Part shown: one piece after another, positions 118 to 4,513 of the stretch
Position numbering within the stretch: the stretch's first letter is position 1
How the letters are laid out: the number at the start of each line of letters is the position of its first letter
IMG/VR virus record: IMGVR_UViG_3300023488_000045
Location: 1 to 4,530 of that record
From: a virus
Taxonomy: Duplodnaviria > Heunggongvirae > Uroviricota > Caudoviricetes
Reading direction: 5' to 3' (one strand)
DNA length: 4,530 bases
The notes under the pieces: generated by a model
Databases searched by the model: none
Told to the model about the DNA's origin: nothing
Seen by the model: the letters and a program-made list of their open reading frames with translations, nothing else
Made by a program: the position numbers and the translations under genes

Positions 118-609
118 TCACTCTCCTTTGATGCGAATGCCAGTGGCGCGTGGCACATTAACTTCCACGATGCGCACTGTTGGTTTGTACATCTCAATCG
201 CTGTCAGCCAGTCAGCTCCTGTCATGCGCTTTTCCGCATCGCCATTAGTCCACTGAACCGGTACGCCAATAGCCTTCATCGCGATTTCTATTTCCCCGGC
301 AATGGCGCTTTTTCCGCAACCAGTAAAACCAGAAACAACGACAAGAACTTCACCTTTGGCTGGTTTTATTTCCCGTGCTTCCAGTTCTGCAATGCGCTTT
401 TTGTCTGCTTCCCGTTCATCCAGTAGTGCCAGCACGGTTTCTGGTCCGGTCAGAAATTTGAAGGCGTTGAGCGCATCAATATCCACACCGTAATCTTTAA
501 GTTCCTGTTCACTTAACAAATCATCATCAACTGGCAACATTAACAGGCGTTCCATTGCTGGAGTTGCACGTTCTGCCGCATCTCGCAGTGCCTGATAGTC
601 AATTGTCAT
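118..609 (-). CDS. phage accessory protein: N-terminal coiled-coil region (KKRIAELEAREIK) plus C-terminal Walker-A/P-loop kinase-like fragment
   Basis: ORF track 118..618 (-). Preferred start is ATG 609..607, which overlaps the upstream TGA (608..606) as ATGA and has an AAGGA Shine-Dalgarno (622..618) 8 nt upstream; ATG 618 is the alternative. Protein contains a beta-strand-like EVLVVVS followed by GFTGCGKS (GxxxxGKS) and a helix-like AIAGEIEIAMKAIG, then a WTNGD loop. Only about 75 residues follow the P-loop, too few for a complete NTPase. Confidence 0.6.
   Translation of the reverse strand: MTIDYQALRDAAERATPAMERLLMLPVDDDLLSEQELKDYGVDIDALNAFKFLTGPETVLALLDEREADKKRIAELEAREIKPAKGEVLVVVSGFTGCGKSAIAGEIEIAMKAIGVPVQWTNGDAEKRMTGADWLTAIEMYKPTVRIVEVNVPRATGIRIKGE
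380..398 (-). repeat. 19-nt exact dispersed repeat tccagttctgcaatgcgct; second copy at 1542..1560
   Basis: Identical 19-mer in gene 118..609 and in Ea22-like paralog 1. Both encode KRIAELE on the minus strand within coiled-coil segments; flanks diverge. Confidence 0.85.
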
Positions 610-1250
610 TCTCGCCATCCTTCACAGTTGTAATCACTACAGCCTTCAAAATCATATGGGCTGTACTGCCAGGTTATTTTTCCGCAATGCGGACAATTCC
701 AACGCACCTTCCCGCTTCGCGACTTCTTTCTTCTGTTCTGCTCTTTCAACCAGTCAGGCATGACCAAACCTGCGCCCTGAACCATTGTTCTGCGGTTAAA
801 GTTATTGATATTGAACGTCCGGCGCTTTGCTGCATCAGCAATGGAAAATGACAACCAAACTATTCCTGGTTCGTTTTTGTTGACGACGCTAAAGATGGTC
901 GCTTTACTGAAGTCATCTGTTGGCAATCCACCGCGTTGAAGCCAGTAAACATCGTTGCCGTTCCAGCTACCTTTTTTGTAGGCCACATACTCAGTGCAAT
1001 CTGACTCAATCAGGCTTTCTGTAGGGATGTACTGGCAATCAACGTGCCACACAGCCATTGCATCCACACTATCGGCACAAACAGGCTGATCGATATCTCG
1101 CCCACAATTCCAGGCTTTTTGGGCTTCTTCCAGCGTGTAAATATGAGCGCGATCGATATCAGAACTGTAACCATTGCCGTTATGGCAATGGAATGAGGCG
1201 TTATTACCCACAGTTTCACGCAAGCACATCATGTAAAAGCGGTTATTCAC
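606..1250 (-). CDS. hypothetical Cys/Trp/His-rich protein with C-terminal zinc-ribbon-like motif (CPHC-x14-C-x4-C)
   Basis: ORF track 606..1250 (-), 214 aa. GTG start at 1250..1248 overlaps the TGA (1249..1247) of the upstream Ea22-like gene as GTGA. Strong AAGGAGG Shine-Dalgarno (1263..1257) with a 6-nt spacer. C-terminus NCPHCGKITWQYSPYDFEGCSDYNCEGW. Its stop overlaps the downstream start as ATGA. No family recognised from memory. Confidence 0.6.
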   Translation of the reverse strand: MNNRFYMMCLRETVGNNASFHCHNGNGYSSDIDRAHIYTLEEAQKAWNCGRDIDQPVCADSVDAMAVWHVDCQYIPTESLIESDCTEYVAYKKGSWNGNDVYWLQRGGLPTDDFSKATIFSVVNKNEPGIVWLSFSIADAAKRRTFNINNFNRRTMVQGAGLVMPDWLKEQNRRKKSRSGKVRWNCPHCGKITWQYSPYDFEGCSDYNCEGWRE

Positions 1251-1909
1251 TGGTTGCCTCCTTTGCGAAGCTGTTCAGCAATACTTACGCATATCTCTGC
1301 GCCTCTAATCAGCCCCGGAACGTTCTTGTTTGGCCCAACTTCACCATCAACAAAATCAATCATCGCGTTACGAGCCATATCCACCCCCTGCGCACGTACT
1401 TCAGCCAGGAGAGCGTCGGTAGCTGGGGTTTCCGTGAAGTTGTCCTCCCAACCGTAGTACTCCTGACGACAGAAGTTATTAAATTCCTTCTCCGACTGTT
1501 TAAGCGCCGCATTCTCCGCTGCCAGCGCCGTGCGTTCGCTCTCCAGTTCTGCAATGCGCTGTTTTGCGGCATCAAGTTCAATCGATAATTTTTCCAACTG
1601 CTCTTTATGCTTCTTGTATTCCTGATATGCGTGCCAGGACTGACCTTTGCGCACACTATCAGTAATATCAGTAATCTGTTCTGGTGTTAGCGTGGTCAGT
1701 GGCTGTGCTGGGAAAATCAGCACTTTCCCGGAATCCCAATCAAAACCAGCGTGAATTGACTGAACCTCAACTGAGGGTGTTGAACCAATGCTGCCAGGCG
1801 AATGAACAACGATCGTTACATCCATATCGCGACGATGGCTGTGGTTGTTGGACAAAATACGATTCAACAAAATACGATTCACCAACTCAGAAAATTTGGA
1901 GAATTTCAT
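1247..1909 (-). CDS. Ead/Ea22-like family protein (paralog 1)
   Basis: ORF track 1247..1921 (-); the track start is a TTG, and the first ATG is at 1909..1907 with a GAGG Shine-Dalgarno 6 nt upstream. Central coiled coil AKQRIAELESERTALAAENAALKQ and the motif ETPATDALLAEVRAQGV, which I recognise as typical of lambdoid Ead/Ea22-like proteins. C-terminus AEQLRKGGNQ is homologous to paralog 2. Confidence 0.7.
   Translation of the reverse strand: MKFSKFSELVNRILLNRILSNNHSHRRDMDVTIVVHSPGSIGSTPSVEVQSIHAGFDWDSGKVLIFPAQPLTTLTPEQITDITDSVRKGQSWHAYQEYKKHKEQLEKLSIELDAAKQRIAELESERTALAAENAALKQSEKEFNNFCRQEYYGWEDNFTETPATDALLAEVRAQGVDMARNAMIDFVDGEVGPNKNVPGLIRGAEICVSIAEQLRKGGNQ
1257..1263 (-). promoter_or_regulatory. 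Shine-Dalgarno AAGGAGG for the GTG-initiated gene 606..1250, embedded in the last codons of the upstream Ea22-like gene
   Basis: AAGGAGG on the minus strand, 6-nt spacer to GTG 1250. Confidence 0.6.
1259..1280 (-). repeat. conserved junction motif at the 3' end of both Ea22-like genes (second copy 2336..2357, 20/22 identical)
   Basis: ctcctttgcgaagctgttcagc versus ctcctttgcgaatctgttccgc. On the minus strand this encodes AEQ(L/I)RKG and contains the AAAGGAG Shine-Dalgarno serving the GTG start of the downstream gene in both cases (GTGA overlap at 1250 and 2328). Confidence 0.8.
1853..1882 (-). repeat. 15-bp tandem direct repeat x2 (caaaatacgattcaa / caaaatacgattcac) inside the Ea22-like paralog 1 N-terminus
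   Basis: Read directly: 1853..1867 and 1868..1882 are identical except for the last base. In frame (5 codons each), giving NRILL-NRILS in the protein. Confidence 0.8.
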
Positions 1910-1917
1910 GCGGAGCC

Positions 1918-2328
1918 TCAATATGCAAAATAGACCGTTGCCACGCCGTTATAGTGATCAAACGATACGGCGTTTACTTCATAACTGGCCGGGAGCTTCG
2001 AGCCAAGAACGTATCCGGGCCACGTTTTCCATGGAATTTCTCTATTCTCACTACCCCCATATACCGTACATCCAAGTGAACCTACAGCTTCATTAGAACG
2101 CGTGCCGCACGTTATGAATCCCAGATTTTGCTTACTGCTCTTAATGGTGATTGAGTGAACGCTGGCTGATGCATTAGCAGCACGCTGTGCCTGTTGGTTT
2201 GCGATATTCGCAGAGTTCGCAGCAGCTACAGCAGCCGTAGTCGCGGCGGTAGAGGCTACAATAGCTGCTGAAGCATGCACTTGTTGGATATTCACCAACA
2301 ATGCCGCGACAAAAATCATCTTCTTCAC
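1918..2328 (-). CDS. predicted secreted/periplasmic protein with Sec-type signal peptide, Ala/Thr-rich linker and two-Cys C-terminal domain; function unknown
   Basis: ORF track 1918..2328 (-), 136 aa. GTG start 2328..2326 overlaps the upstream TGA (2327..2325) as GTGA; AGGAG Shine-Dalgarno 7 nt upstream; alternative ATG at 2319. N-terminus [22 protein letters not shown] has a basic n-region, hydrophobic core and AXA-like cleavage site (VHA). Mature part is a low-complexity Ala/Thr/Asn stretch followed by a roughly 80-aa domain with two Cys, ending YFAY. Confidence 0.6.
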   Translation of the reverse strand: MKKMIFVAALLVNIQQVHASAAIVASTAATTAAVAAANSANIANQQAQRAANASASVHSITIKSSKQNLGFITCGTRSNEAVGSLGCTVYGGSENREIPWKTWPGYVLGSKLPASYEVNAVSFDHYNGVATVYFAY

Positions 2329-2855
2329 TTGTCAGCTCCTTTGCGAATCTGTTCCGCCCATTCTTCAAGGGATTTCTCCGCATATTCACCGGACAGGCCA
2401 TCAATCGGGTGCGGTTCATTAGCTAACTCTTCTTTCGCTGACAGAATCATGCGTGTAACGTCGAAAACTTCACGTAAAGACTTATTGATAAATCCGTGAT
2501 TGAACGCAGCAGCAAGACGGCTGGCGGTATAGTTAATCCCCTCGTTGCGTGCTTCCGCACGAATTTCAGCAAGGAAAGCATCGGTGGCGGGAGTTTCGCT
2601 GTGGTGCAGGGCATCGTTGATAATCATTGCAGCAACACCAGCCTGCCCTGCATCCGTGACCGACACATGCTCAAGAGTTACGACCATTGCGTGTTTCAGC
2701 CCAGCATTCTCCGCCGCCAGCGCCGCGCACTTGGCCTCCGCTTCAGCAAATTTACGCACCAGATATTCAGCGTTTGTTTCGTTAACCTTTAAATCTCGTG
2801 GGATGCATTTACCTTTCAGAAATCCATCCATCTCAATTAGTGACATTTGTTTCAT
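2325..2855 (-). CDS. Ead/Ea22-like family protein (paralog 2)
   Basis: ORF track 2325..2873 (-), which begins at a GTG. Preferred start is ATG 2855..2853, overlapping the TGA (2854..2852) of the upstream small ORF as ATGA. Contains [11 protein letters not shown] and [16 protein letters not shown], and a C-terminal [10 protein letters not shown]; homologous to paralog 1 at protein and nucleotide level. Confidence 0.7.
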
Positions 2856-3016
2856 TTCTTCCCACTCCGCCACATCGCATTCAGATATTTGTTGTCATTA
2901 ACAGAACCGAAACTCTTTCTCTTAAGCAATTCCTCTCTCGATGGCATTGGCTTTACGCGTTGGCGAATAATCATTTCTGCCGGAAGAATGCCGGGATTGT
3001 ATGCAAGTCCTCTCAT
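2852..3016 (-). CDS. small basic hypothetical protein (54 aa)
   Basis: In-frame part of track ORF 2852..3166 (which begins at a TTG at 3166 and overlaps the 97-aa gene out of frame). ATG 3016..3014 is preceded by TGAGGAA with a 6-nt spacer, and that Shine-Dalgarno overlaps the TGA of the 97-aa gene. Its own stop overlaps the ATG of Ea22-like paralog 2 as ATGA. Product [54 protein letters not shown]. Alternative ATGs at 3049 and 3034 lack a Shine-Dalgarno. Confidence 0.35.
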
Positions 3017-3026
3017 GGTAAATTCC

Positions 3027-3320
3027 TCAGTCATTACTGATAGCGCCATAGCGTGAGCGGTAATTACGCAGGCGCGGGTCAATTTCAGGGAAGTGGGTAT
3101 ATGCGGCTTTGCGGAATGGTCGGATTGATGTCTGGTAAATTCGCTCGCGTTCTTCTTTCTCTGCAAGCCATATACAGTGGCGAAATTCCTTTTCCTCTTT
3201 CGTTTCCTGCGGTAGAGACATTATTCGATCGTAGTTTTTTTTGAATTTATCCAGCACCTCCGATACGGAATTGCCGGAACAGCGGCGCGCGTCATCCGCA
3301 CCATACAGAGGCGCTGGCAT
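3027..3320 (-). CDS. small phage protein (97 aa); tentatively Abc2-like anti-RecBCD protein on position and size only
   Basis: ORF track 3027..3320 (-). ATG 3320..3318 with a TAAGGA Shine-Dalgarno 7 nt upstream. Sits downstream of erf/ssb where P22-like phages carry abc1/abc2, and P22 Abc2 is about 97 aa as I remember it. I cannot verify sequence identity, so the product call is low confidence. Confidence 0.45.
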
Positions 3321-3343: not shown

Positions 3344-3727
3344 TCAGAATGGGATGGAATCGTCGTATACAGGAGTGTTCTGCTGGTTACTACTTTGCTG
3401 CTGCGGGCCATTTCCTGAAGCTGCAAATCCAATCTTTGCATTCAGTAATTCAAGAGTGATTGATTGACCATTTTGCCCCTGATAAACATCAACCCTGATG
3501 TTTTCTCCGGTAATTTCCACAATGCCACCTTCAACAAGAACACTACGGTAGTAATCCGCTTGCGCTCCCGGCTTGGCAAATACAACGGCGCTGTAGTTTG
3601 TCCATTCTTTCTTTTTTGTCTGGCGATCGTAATACTGAACGCCAGCACGGATGTTGAATCCGATATTTTCCACGGCCTGAAACTCTCTTGCGGGCTTGTT
3701 TAGTCTTACAGTAATCGAATGTGCCAT
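3344..3727 (-). CDS. ssb: single-stranded DNA-binding protein (phage SSB-like, short form)
   Basis: ORF track 3344..3727 (-), 127 aa. ATG 3727..3725 overlaps the erf TAA (3729..3727) as TAATG; AAGGAG Shine-Dalgarno lies inside the erf 3' end. OB-fold-like core (YSAVVFAKPGAQADYYRSVLVEGGIVEITGENIRVDVYQGQNGQSITLEL), Gly/Gln-rich linker, and acidic-aromatic tip YDDSIPF resembling the canonical SSB DDDIPF tail. Confidence 0.75.
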   Translation of the reverse strand: MAHSITVRLNKPAREFQAVENIGFNIRAGVQYYDRQTKKKEWTNYSAVVFAKPGAQADYYRSVLVEGGIVEITGENIRVDVYQGQNGQSITLELLNAKIGFAASGNGPQQQSSNQQNTPVYDDSIPF

Positions 3728-4332
3728 TAAGCAGCAGCTCCTTCTAATTCGTCTCGTCTGATGTTGTAAACGTCCTGCGCTTTGTGCTGCTCAGGTGTGC
3801 CTTCGAGCATCTTCCACGCTTTGGCGAACGCCTGTTTAAGCTCTTCTACGGTGTTTTTCTGCATTGCTGCGTCAGTGAATGCTTTTAGAACCTGTTCAGG
3901 TGTAGGTGATGGTTTTGATTGCTTTGCTGCTGCGTTCTGCTGATGTTTATGCTCGTCTGTATCTGCATCTTTCGCATCATCAATGCCGAACAAACCATTG
4001 AGGCAATACTTGCGTGCATAAGAGCTTGTAGCTCCCGTAACTTGTGCAGAATCCATTCCTTTCTTGCTTTCTTCCTCTCGTGCAAGAGCGGTTGCCGTAT
4101 GGCTGTTTTCGCCATCGGTAATAGTTGCCGTGGCTTTCACGTAATACCGATCACCAATCAACACAACTTCATCGCTGATTGATAAAAACAGACCATTCAG
4201 TAACGGCTTAACGCCTTCAAGAATATCTTCGCAGCTTCTGTATTTATATTTACCGAATGAGTTGTACTGATTCTTTGGCGCGTTCAGATTCTCCTGAATA
4301 GCTGCCAGTCTTGCGTAAAATTCTTTGCTCAT
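3727..4332 (-). CDS. erf: Erf-family single-strand annealing protein (essential recombination function)
   Basis: ORF track 3727..4362 (-), whose first codon is a TTG. Preferred start is ATG 4332..4330 (MSKEFYARLAAIQENLNAPKNQYNSFGKYKYRSCEDILEGVKPLL...), which I recognise as closely resembling the phage P22 Erf N-terminal domain. About 201 aa. Followed by a translationally coupled ssb. Confidence 0.85.
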   Translation of the reverse strand: MSKEFYARLAAIQENLNAPKNQYNSFGKYKYRSCEDILEGVKPLLNGLFLSISDEVVLIGDRYYVKATATITDGENSHTATALAREEESKKGMDSAQVTGATSSYARKYCLNGLFGIDDAKDADTDEHKHQQNAAAKQSKPSPTPEQVLKAFTDAAMQKNTVEELKQAFAKAWKMLEGTPEQHKAQDVYNIRRDELEGAAA

Positions 4333-4342
4333 ATGATTGTTC

Positions 4343-4513
4343 TCAGAATGGACATGGACCAAGGAAATAACGCTGATTTAATACTTCGGTCTTTGCCGCA
4401 TTTAAAAAGACGCGAACACCTTCACGATCGCCCTTCTGGCGATACATTAACGCCTGCTGCGTGTACATGCGCCTCTGTAACTTGCTCTCCTTCACTGTGG
4501 TTGCAAGTGACAT
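4343..4513 (-). CDS. small protein (56 aa) immediately upstream of erf, at the Arf/Kil position of P22-like phages
   Basis: Not in the ORF track (under 60 aa). ATG 4513..4511 preceded by a perfect AAGGAG (4525..4520) with a 6-nt spacer. Hand translation: MSLATTVKESKLQRRMYTQQALMYRQKGDREGVRVFLNAAKTEVLNQRYFLGPCPF, stop TGA at 4345..4343, 10 nt before the erf ATG. Identity with Arf or Kil not verified. Confidence 0.45.
   Translation of the reverse strand: MSLATTVKESKLQRRMYTQQALMYRQKGDREGVRVFLNAAKTEVLNQRYFLGPCPF

What the first reader, a model, noticed from the sequence alone, without database searches (positions are those of the whole stretch)
606..1250. Cys/Trp/His-rich 214-aa protein with C-terminal zinc ribbon, translationally coupled on both sides
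Nine Cys, many Trp and His, and a C-terminal CPHC-x14-C-x4-C motif suggest metal binding, possibly nucleic-acid binding or a small enzyme. It is initiated by GTGA overlap from the Ea22-like gene and terminates in an ATGA overlap with the P-loop-fragment gene. That implies stoichiometric co-expression of a two-gene module, (Zn-ribbon protein) + (coiled-coil/P-loop protein), in a region where phages keep defence and counter-defence cargo. I do not recognise the family.
Basis: partly seen in the sequence, partly recalled or inferred. Interest (0 to 1): 0.55.

Follow-up and report, generated by a model that had tools for sequence, protein, structure and literature searches.

The report
Uncharacterised phage early zinc-ribbon protein
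This is a real, widely spread phage early gene encoding a two-repeat globular module joined to a zinc ribbon; nobody knows its function, nothing solved resembles it, and it travels alone rather than as a two-gene module with its neighbour.

Summary
The ORF at 606-1250 (minus strand) is real. It has a GTG start 6 nt after an AAGGAGG Shine-Dalgarno, a GTGA overlap with the upstream stop and an ATGA overlap with the downstream gene. It encodes 214 aa with 10 Cys (not 9) and a CPHC-x14-C-x4-C motif.

It belongs to a large catalogued but uncharacterised family: PHROG 2457, P7 Upf87.6, at least 1120 clusters at 50% identity. Only the four C-terminal cysteines are conserved; the six N-terminal ones are not.

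The two-gene module is not supported. In near-identical E. coli copies the downstream gene always starts with the same Ead/Ea22 N-terminus, but its body is mosaic and the Walker-A part is a minority. In 34 diverse loci no neighbour is conserved.

P7's "tyrosine phosphatase" note is a chance pattern match.

Best guess, low confidence: a repressor-controlled, lytic-phase accessory protein that binds nucleic acid, or a host protein bound to it, for host takeover or counter-defence.

The parts
606..1250 (-). Coding sequence of the 214-aa protein (GTG start at 1250-1248, TGA stop at 608-606); member of PHROG 2457 / P7 Upf87.6 family
   Evidence: ORF list and translation. Full-length hit to phrog_2457, E 2.2e-116. 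97% identical to P7 Upf87.6. pN/pS 0.34 among 53 alleles.
1257..1263 (-). Shine-Dalgarno AAGGAGG, 6 nt upstream of the GTG start, inside the 3' end of the upstream gene
   Evidence: Sequence. The GGAGGC core is kept in nearly all of 78 close alleles although the upstream genes differ.
1026..1241 (-). Repeat 1 (residues 4-75): beta-hairpin, GxGY loop, helix, strand-helix-strand. Carries near-invariant G15, G27, Y28, A43, P56 and invariant D71, Q73.
   Evidence: AF2 secondary structure. Conservation. hhalign of repeat 1 against repeat 2: probability 64%, E 6.5e-5.
810..995 (-). Repeat 2 (residues 86-147): same layout as repeat 1. Carries G98, invariant N99, D100, A117, R143.
702..800 (-). Basic linker/helix (residues 151-183), net charge +8 here and +6.3 on average in the family
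   Evidence: Helix 166-178 in the AF2 model. Charge statistics over 96 relatives.
609..701 (-). C4 zinc ribbon (residues 184-214): C186-P-H-C189 ... C204-x4-C209
   Evidence: C186, C189, C204 invariant and C209 in 85 of 96. A CxxC-x(8-25)-C-x(1-6)-C pattern is present in 82 of 96 relatives. Strands 182-185 and 192-195 flank the first knuckle. Only weak generic ribbon similarity to eL43/L37a, eL37 and AlaRS (E 0.4-1.4).
1247..1921 (-). Upstream neighbour: Ea22-like coiled-coil protein (224 aa) whose TGA stop overlaps the target's GTG (GTGA). Not a conserved partner.
   Evidence: phrog_368/492/614 hits. Upstream neighbours differ among close alleles and among distant loci.
118..618 (-). Downstream neighbour: Ead/Ea22-like N-terminus (PF13935) fused to a short Walker-A-bearing tail (GFTGCGKS at 307-330). 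Start at ATG 609 (ATGA overlap) or ATG 618. Mosaic gene, not a specific partner.
   Evidence: Pfam PF13935, E 1.8e-18, residues 5-82. Walker A with only 62 residues after it. 58 distinct downstream proteins share only the MARMTIDYQ... start.

Best explanation
Shown: this is a genuine protein-coding gene of a lambdoid/P22-like early-left operon. It is one copy of a widespread, catalogued but functionally uncharacterised phage family (PHROG 2457; P7 Upf87.6). The protein is a compact unit made of four parts: two tandem, anciently duplicated ~70-residue alpha/beta repeats, a strongly basic helix, and a C-terminal C4 zinc ribbon. The family-wide invariant residues are D71, Q73, N99 and three ribbon cysteines; Y28, R143 and the fourth cysteine are nearly invariant. 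The gene moves between phages as a single-gene cassette made of its own Shine-Dalgarno, the ORF, and the first codons of whatever Ead/Ea22-type gene follows. It has no conserved partner gene.

Inferred: because it sits in repressor-controlled early operons, and also in a virulent phage, it acts during lytic development rather than in the lysogen. The most likely mode of action is as follows. The basic helix and zinc ribbon hold the protein on a nucleic acid, or on a host protein bound to nucleic acid. The invariant polar residues of the two-repeat module recognise or act on a ligand there. The outcome would be host takeover or counter-defence rather than an essential phage function.

The gene, family, architecture and lack of a partner are well supported. 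The mechanism is a low-confidence inference.
For: Gene reality:
- ORF, Shine-Dalgarno and overlaps.
- GTG start in 77 of 78 alleles and pN/pS 0.34.

Family:
- phrog_2457, E 2.2e-116, and all 96 diverse relatives map to it.
- 117 relatives in the 5.8-billion-protein set and 1120 cluster representatives at E<=1e-3.
- Hosts include Enterobacterales, Yersinia, Vibrio, Acinetobacter, Alteromonas and Methyloprofundus.
- Present in 279 of 5426 complete E. coli genomes, with 181 of 289 places on plasmids, many about 92-102 kb in size (P1/P7-like; size-based inference).

Architecture:
- AF2 pLDDT 94.3, pTM 0.79.
- Internal repeat: hhalign E 6.5e-5.
- Linker charge +6.3, repeats mildly acidic.
- Conserved residues.

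No conserved partner.

Lytic-phase control:
- Gene order erf, ssb-like, abc2, ea genes, with no promoter or terminator match on the coding strand near the gene.
- In P7 the gene lies downstream of an annotated C1 operator, Op(hea).
- A 93% identical copy is in the Vequintavirinae phage Av-05.
- In Vibrio phages it sits beside an exonuclease, a Mu Gam-like protein and a DNA methyltransferase.
- Neighbours with any annotation are integrases, DNA methylases, replication and recombination genes.

Precedent only: a 52-aa zinc-ribbon phage protein, Enki, neutralises AbiH and a retron (bioRxiv 10.1101/2024.06.14.598830).
Against: - No experiment, homology or structural neighbour ties the protein to nucleic-acid binding or to any defence system.
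- The ribbon's similarity to ribosomal and tRNA-synthetase ribbons is not significant (E 0.4-1.4).
- Zinc binding itself is inferred from the motif.
- I could not inspect model coordinates, so whether Y28, D71, Q73, N99 and R143 cluster in space is unknown.
- The invariant D/Q/N/R set would fit an enzyme as well as a binding pocket.
- The AlphaFold database could not be searched, so a distant characterised structural relative may have been missed.
- The internal duplication is only moderately supported (probability 64%).
Confidence: 0.4

Rival explanations
1. One reading: the zinc-ribbon protein and the downstream Ead/coiled-coil/P-loop protein form a stoichiometric two-gene defence or counter-defence module.
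For: ATGA (or 13-nt) overlap with the downstream gene. In 77 of 80 near-identical copies the downstream gene begins with the same Ead/Ea22 N-terminus, MARMTIDYQ. P7 has the same arrangement.
Against: Beyond its first ~15-70 residues, the downstream gene is mosaic: 58 distinct proteins of 63-416 aa. The full downstream protein, including its Walker-A part, aligns in about a dozen loci, mostly at 26-63% identity. All these copies are at least 93% identical, so they represent one recently spread allele. Homologues at 31-75% identity have 34 different +1 neighbours in 34 loci. Av-05 and the Vibrio phages have unrelated downstream genes. Only 62 residues follow the Walker A, too few for a P-loop NTPase domain. 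Overlaps are generic in these operons.
Confidence: 0.08
2. It is a small enzyme. The two-repeat module forms an active site from the invariant D71, Q73, N99, R143 and Y28, acting on a nucleic acid, nucleotide or signalling molecule, and the ribbon is only a targeting or structural element. P7's annotation as a tyrosine phosphatase is one version of this.
For: A handful of polar residues stay invariant at 20-30% overall identity. The window protein matches the classical PTP signature [LIVMF]HCxxGxxx[STC][STAGP]x[LIVMFY] (pattern recalled from memory) at residues 20-32, which explains the P7 note.
Confidence: 0.2
3. It is a prophage-encoded defence or superinfection-exclusion gene (a 'moron') that benefits the lysogen.
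For: It lies in a hypervariable accessory region. It is non-essential by distribution, being present in about 5% of complete E. coli genomes. It spreads horizontally among unrelated phages and phage-plasmids.
Against: It is co-oriented and overlapping within early operons in about 90% of loci. There is no promoter-like or terminator-like site of its own. In P7 it sits behind a C1 operator. It is present in a Vequintavirinae (virulent-type) phage. There is no PADLOC hit.
Confidence: 0.1
4. It is a phage gene-expression or DNA-transaction regulator, for example an RNA- or DNA-binding zinc-ribbon factor like Mu Com. It would serve the phage's own early programme rather than act on host immunity.
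For: Basic helix plus C4 ribbon. Two relatives give weak Pfam matches to Zn_ribbon_Com. Its neighbours are recombination, replication and methylase genes.
Against: The gene is scattered and dispensable across unrelated phage types with different regulatory circuits. No target site or partner co-varies with it. The ribbon similarity is not significant.
Confidence: 0.15

Closest known systems
Phage P7 Upf87.6 / PHROG 2457 (uncharacterised phage protein family)
   Same: Same family. It is 97% identical to Upf87.6 and gives a full-length profile match, E 2.2e-116. It has the same length, the same zinc ribbon, and the same position in front of an Ead-like gene in P7.
   Different: Nothing substantive. 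The family has no assigned function, and P7's 'putative tyrosine phosphatase' note does not survive family-wide conservation analysis.
Generic C4 zinc ribbons preceded by a basic segment (ribosomal eL43/L37a, eL37; N-terminal ribbon of archaeal AlaRS; Mu Com)
   Same: Two-knuckle C4 ribbon of about 30 residues following a Lys/Arg-rich stretch. These are the best sequence matches to solved structures, and a few relatives give weak Pfam ribbon matches.
   Different: The matches are not significant (E 0.4-1.4), cover only residues ~163-213, and say nothing about the 150-residue two-repeat module, which has no counterpart in those proteins.
Lambda Ea8.5 (zinc-binding protein of the exo-xis accessory region)
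   Same: A small zinc-binding protein encoded in the same kind of early-left accessory region, next to an Ea22-type gene. Its zinc-binding nature is from my own knowledge.
   Different: There is no detectable relationship: hhalign probability 0.6%, with only the CPxC tetrapeptide aligned. The size and architecture differ.
Small zinc-ribbon phage anti-defence proteins such as Enki (52 aa; inhibits AbiH and a retron)
   Same: A phage-encoded accessory protein with a predicted zinc ribbon, giving a functional precedent for counter-defence (bioRxiv 10.1101/2024.06.14.598830).
   Different: Enki is four times smaller and lacks the two-repeat module. This is a resemblance in kind only, not evidence of homology or shared function.

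Membership tests
PHROG 2457 / P7 Upf87.6 family | Full-length match to the family profile | tested here: met
   phrog_2457, E 2.2e-116, residues 1-214 against profile positions 1-220 of 222. All 96 diverse relatives hit the same PHROG.
PHROG 2457 / P7 Upf87.6 family | Family-invariant residues (D71, Q73, N99, C186, C189, C204; near-invariant Y28, G98, R143, C209) | tested here: met
   All are present in the window protein.
C4 zinc ribbon | Two Cys knuckles (CxxC ... Cx(1-6)C) flanked by beta-strands | tested here: met
   C186-P-H-C189-x14-C204-x4-C209. The pattern is present in 82 of 96 relatives. Strands 182-185 and 192-195 in the AF2 model.
C4 zinc ribbon | Actual zinc binding | not testable with these tools
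   Needs metal analysis of purified protein.
Protein tyrosine phosphatase (as noted in the P7 record) | Catalytic C-x5-R P-loop with a conserved Cys nucleophile | tested here: not met
   No C-x5-R in any of 96 relatives. C22 is kept in 9 of 96, and the position of the would-be Arg is an invariant Tyr. The PROSITE-like signature occurs in 3 of 96.
Protein tyrosine phosphatase (as noted in the P7 record) | PTP/DSP fold or profile match | tested here: not met
Two-gene module with the downstream Ead/P-loop gene | The two genes co-occur across genomes | tested here: not met
   58 distinct downstream proteins among 81 loci of near-identical copies. 34 different +1 neighbour clusters in 34 diverse loci.
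Two-gene module with the downstream Ead/P-loop gene | Physical interaction of the two products | not testable with these tools
   No multimer prediction was available. Needs AlphaFold-Multimer or a pull-down.
Ead/Ea22-like family (PF13935) | Match to the Ead_Ea22 profile | tested here: not met
   The target has no PF13935 hit, whereas its downstream neighbour does (E 1.8e-18).
Known anti-phage defence systems (PADLOC-DB v2) | Match to any defence-system protein model | tested here: not met
   0 families for the target.
Known anti-defence proteins | Homology to a characterised anti-defence protein | tested here: inconclusive
   No dedicated anti-defence library was available. No Pfam hit, including restriction-alleviation and anti-restriction families. 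No annotated structural neighbour in BFVD.
Lambda Ea8.5 | Sequence or profile similarity | tested here: not met
   hhalign probability 0.6%.

The most novel reading that the evidence does not exclude
The family is the founding example of a new protein fold: a pseudo-symmetric pair of ~70-residue alpha/beta repeats clamped to a zinc ribbon. Its invariant D71/Q73/N99/R143/Y28 site would bind or modify a nucleic-acid or nucleotide ligand, making it a previously unrecognised single-protein counter-defence or host-takeover effector. Its spread across temperate phages, phage-plasmids and virulent phages of many Gammaproteobacteria would fit that role.
Probability: 0.2. Interest if true: 0.65.

Novelty: new member of a known kind. 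Interest (0 to 1): 0.35.

Why it matters
If its function were found, it would annotate more than a thousand sequence clusters at one stroke. It would also explain a gene carried by about 5% of complete E. coli genomes, many of the copies on plasmids whose size is typical of P1/P7-like phage-plasmids, and by Stx-converting prophages. A confident model with no solved structural relative makes it a reasonable target for structural and anti-defence screening. As it stands, it is one of many dark-matter phage accessory families, and the specific two-gene hypothesis that made it look special does not hold.

Tried and rejected
- Profile libraries: Pfam, NCBIfam, PADLOC and PDB-sequence searches with the single protein, the family profile and 96 individual relatives found only sub-threshold generic zinc-ribbon matches.
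- Guilt by fusion: longer relatives and partial matches carry no known domain except DUF551, which replaces everything after repeat 1 in two E. coli recombinants.
- Guilt by association: no neighbour is conserved across 34 loci. The only recurrence seen was a phrog_874 protein, two genes upstream in P7 and immediately downstream in one Acinetobacter prophage.
- The 'hkaG' label in one phage IME10 record: HK620 HkaG is an Ead-like protein unrelated to the target (E 14). The literature on hkaG expression in APEC therefore does not apply.
- Lambda Ea8.5: unrelated.
- P7's tyrosine-phosphatase note: rejected.
- Literature searches by gene name, PHROG number, accession numbers, peptide strings and topic found nothing on this family.
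- DNA-mimic idea: rejected because the repeats are only mildly acidic, with family means of -2.8 and -1.7.

Full report
Context. All credible genes in the 4530-base window are on the minus strand. They form a piece of a lambdoid/P22-like early-left operon:
- an Erf-family recombinase (3727-4362);
- an SSB-like protein (3344-3727);
- the anti-RecBCD protein Abc2 (3027-3320);
- then accessory 'ea'-type genes: an Ea22-like protein (2325-2873), a 136-aa protein with a signal-peptide-like N-terminus (1918-2328), a second Ea22-like protein (1247-1921), the target (606-1250), and an Ead/Ea22-like gene (118-609/618).

The window is mosaic. No phage or E. coli record covers 80% of it, although thousands share pieces. 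The simple scans find no promoter-like or terminator-like site on the coding strand near the target.

The observation. The ORF is as described: 214 codons and a GTG start at 1250-1248. An AAGGAGG precedes it, ending 6 nt upstream. The GTG overlaps the TGA of the upstream gene (GTGA). The target's own TGA (608-606) overlaps an in-frame ATG of the downstream gene (ATGA). A second in-frame ATG 9 nt further upstream (618) is an alternative start.
- The protein has 10 Cys (not 9), 9 Trp and 5 His, and the motif C186-P-H-C189-x14-C204-x4-C209.
- The start is corroborated by relatives that begin at the same position with conserved F5/Y6, and by 77 of 78 near-identical alleles that keep GTG and the GGAGGC core although their upstream genes differ.
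- Variation among 53 alleles is concentrated at third codon positions, with pN/pS about 0.34.
- It is therefore a real, selected coding sequence.

What family it is. The protein matches no Pfam, NCBIfam or PADLOC model and no PDB sequence. It matches PHROG 2457, 'unknown function', over its whole length (E 2.2e-116).
- It is 93-98% identical to hypothetical proteins of the phage-plasmids P7 (Upf87.6) and SJ46, of Stx2c-converting phages, of the podovirus IME10 and of the Vequintavirinae phage Av-05. It is 35-46% identical to proteins of many Vibrio phages.
- Relatives occur in prophages of Klebsiella, Yersinia, Providencia, Pantoea, Acinetobacter, Alteromonas, Rheinheimera and Methyloprofundus.
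- A profile search of 1.84 billion cluster representatives finds 1120 at E<=1e-3.
- 279 of 5426 complete E. coli genomes carry it, with 181 of 289 places on plasmids, many about 92-102 kb, the size of P1/P7-like phage-plasmids.
- Every source calls it hypothetical.
- I found no paper on it.

Anatomy. Over 96 relatives down to about 20% identity, the invariant residues are D71, Q73, N99, C186, C189 and C204. G15, G27, Y28, A43, P56, G98, A117, R143 and C209 are kept in about 90% or more (C209 in 85 of 96). The six N-terminal cysteines of the window protein are not conserved.

AlphaFold2 with a 52-sequence alignment gives a confident single-body model (mean pLDDT 94.3, pTM 0.79). It shows the following, in order:
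- two similar alpha/beta units (about residues 4-75 and 86-147), each a long beta-hairpin, a loop, and strand/helix elements;
- a helix within a strongly basic linker (residues 151-183; net +8 here, +6.3 family mean);
- a two-knuckle zinc ribbon.

Profile-profile alignment of the two halves supports an ancient internal duplication at moderate strength (probability 64%, E 6.5e-5, 58 columns). The repeat is plain by eye in distant relatives. Recombinants that keep only repeat 1 fused to a DUF551 domain mark the domain boundary near residue 68.

The two-gene module. Among 80 viral contigs with copies at least 95% identical, 77 are followed, with the same overlap, by a gene that begins MARMTIDYQ(A/V)LR, the Ead/Ea22 N-terminus.
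- Beyond that the gene is a patchwork: 58 distinct proteins of 63-416 aa. The window's full downstream protein, including its Walker-A-bearing tail, aligns in about a dozen of them, mostly at 26-63% identity.
- The upstream neighbour varies as well. It can be abc2 plus a small ORF, various Ea22-like genes, or others.
- The conserved unit is therefore about 12 nt of Shine-Dalgarno, the ORF, and the first codons of the next gene. That looks like a recombination cassette boundary rather than a functional pair.
- In 34 dereplicated loci with 31-75% identical homologues, the -1 neighbours fall into 31 clusters and the +1 neighbours into 34. About 90% are co-oriented, and about two-thirds overlap or abut the target.
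- Tight coupling is thus a property of these operons, not of a particular partnership.
- Among 150 neighbour proteins, the few with Pfam domains are integrases, Ead/Ea22 proteins, DNA methylases, and replication and recombination proteins. This is an early, DNA-transaction and accessory neighbourhood.
- The downstream gene's Walker A (GFTGCGKS, window 307-330) is followed by only 62 residues, too few for an NTPase domain.

Other leads closed.
- P7's note 'putative tyrosine protein phosphatase' arises because residues 20-32 (FHCHNGNGYSSDI) fit the classical PTP signature pattern, which I recalled from memory. Only 3 of 96 relatives fit it, the Cys is kept in 9 of 96, and there is no C-x5-R.
- The 'hkaG' label in one IME10 record is misleading. 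HK620 HkaG is an Ead-like protein unrelated to the target.
- Lambda Ea8.5 is unrelated.

How it most likely works. The gene lies in operons under prophage-repressor control. In the lambdoid case this is inferred from gene order and the absence of a promoter of its own. In P7 it is inferred from an annotated C1 operator upstream. A copy is also kept by a virulent-type phage. I infer from this that it acts during lytic growth and is not a lysogen-protecting cargo gene.

Its patchy, horizontally mobile, single-gene distribution marks it as an accessory function. The basic helix plus C4 ribbon is the kind of element that holds proteins on nucleic acids. The invariant polar residues in the two-repeat module suggest a specific ligand or catalytic site.

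My best guess is therefore a nucleic-acid-directed host-takeover or counter-defence factor that works alone. Only the architecture, conservation, context and lack of a partner are shown; the rest is inference. An enzymatic role, a phage-internal regulatory role and a defence role remain open, in that order.

Verdict. The zinc ribbon is real and conserved, and 'family not recognised' is correct. The interpretation as a two-gene module is not supported. The gene is an ordinary-looking member of the large pool of uncharacterised phage accessory families, made somewhat more interesting by its breadth and by a confident model with no solved structural relative.

Noticed in passing
window 1918-2328 (minus strand): A 136-aa protein (phrog_8805, unknown function) lies inside the early operon and has a signal-peptide-like N-terminus ([19 protein letters not shown]|SAA). 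A 72% identical copy lies two genes downstream of the target's homologue in the Vequintavirinae phage Av-05, flanked by Ea22-like genes, so a multi-gene block has moved between a temperate and a virulent-type phage.
   Followed up: partly
window 590-640 and loci L005-L084 (around 4633): The first ~10-15 codons of the gene after the target (MARMTIDYQxLR) are nearly invariant in 77 of 80 loci, while the rest of that Ead/Ea22-like gene is a patchwork (58 variants, 63-416 aa). The Ead N-terminus looks like a recombination junction for shuffling accessory modules.
   Followed up: partly
window 118-609, Walker A at 307-330: The downstream Ead/Ea22-like gene ends in a Walker-A motif (GFTGCGKS) with only 62 residues after it, and gives a sub-threshold match to the adenylyl-sulfate kinase N-terminus (E 0.0085). 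It is probably a truncated remnant of a longer P-loop protein (phrog_250 and phrog_31825 profiles are 367 and 439 positions).
   Followed up: partly
window 3344-3727 (minus strand): A 127-aa SSB-like protein (phrog_44) has no Pfam hit. It ends in DDSIPF, resembling the acidic C-terminal tail of bacterial SSBs. Its ATG start shares a base with the stop of erf (the two ORFs meet at base 3727).
   Followed up: no
window 2852-3016 (minus strand): A small ORF (54 aa, [15 protein letters not shown]...) lies between abc2 and the Ea22-like gene and overlaps both. RefSeq records annotate a DUF2737 family protein at this position in related prophages.
   Followed up: no
L001 (P7) 2674-3255 and L090 (Acinetobacter indicus prophage) 5644-6393: A phrog_874 protein (P7 Upf86.8) lies two genes upstream of the target's homologue in P7. 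A 34% identical relative lies immediately downstream of, and overlapping, the homologue in an Acinetobacter prophage. This was the only recurring neighbour seen, in 2 of about 40 contexts.
   Followed up: partly
proteins P0108 and P0116 (E. coli prophages): Natural chimeras keep only repeat 1 of the target (about residues 1-68) fused to a C-terminal DUF551 domain. This shows that recombination occurs inside the gene at the repeat boundary.
   Followed up: partly
L127 (HK620) 4045-4057: HK620 annotates a terminator (tL3) just after abc2 and before its ea-type genes. If the same holds here, expression of the target would depend on N antitermination. The simple scan found no terminator-like site at the equivalent place in the window.
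   Followed up: no
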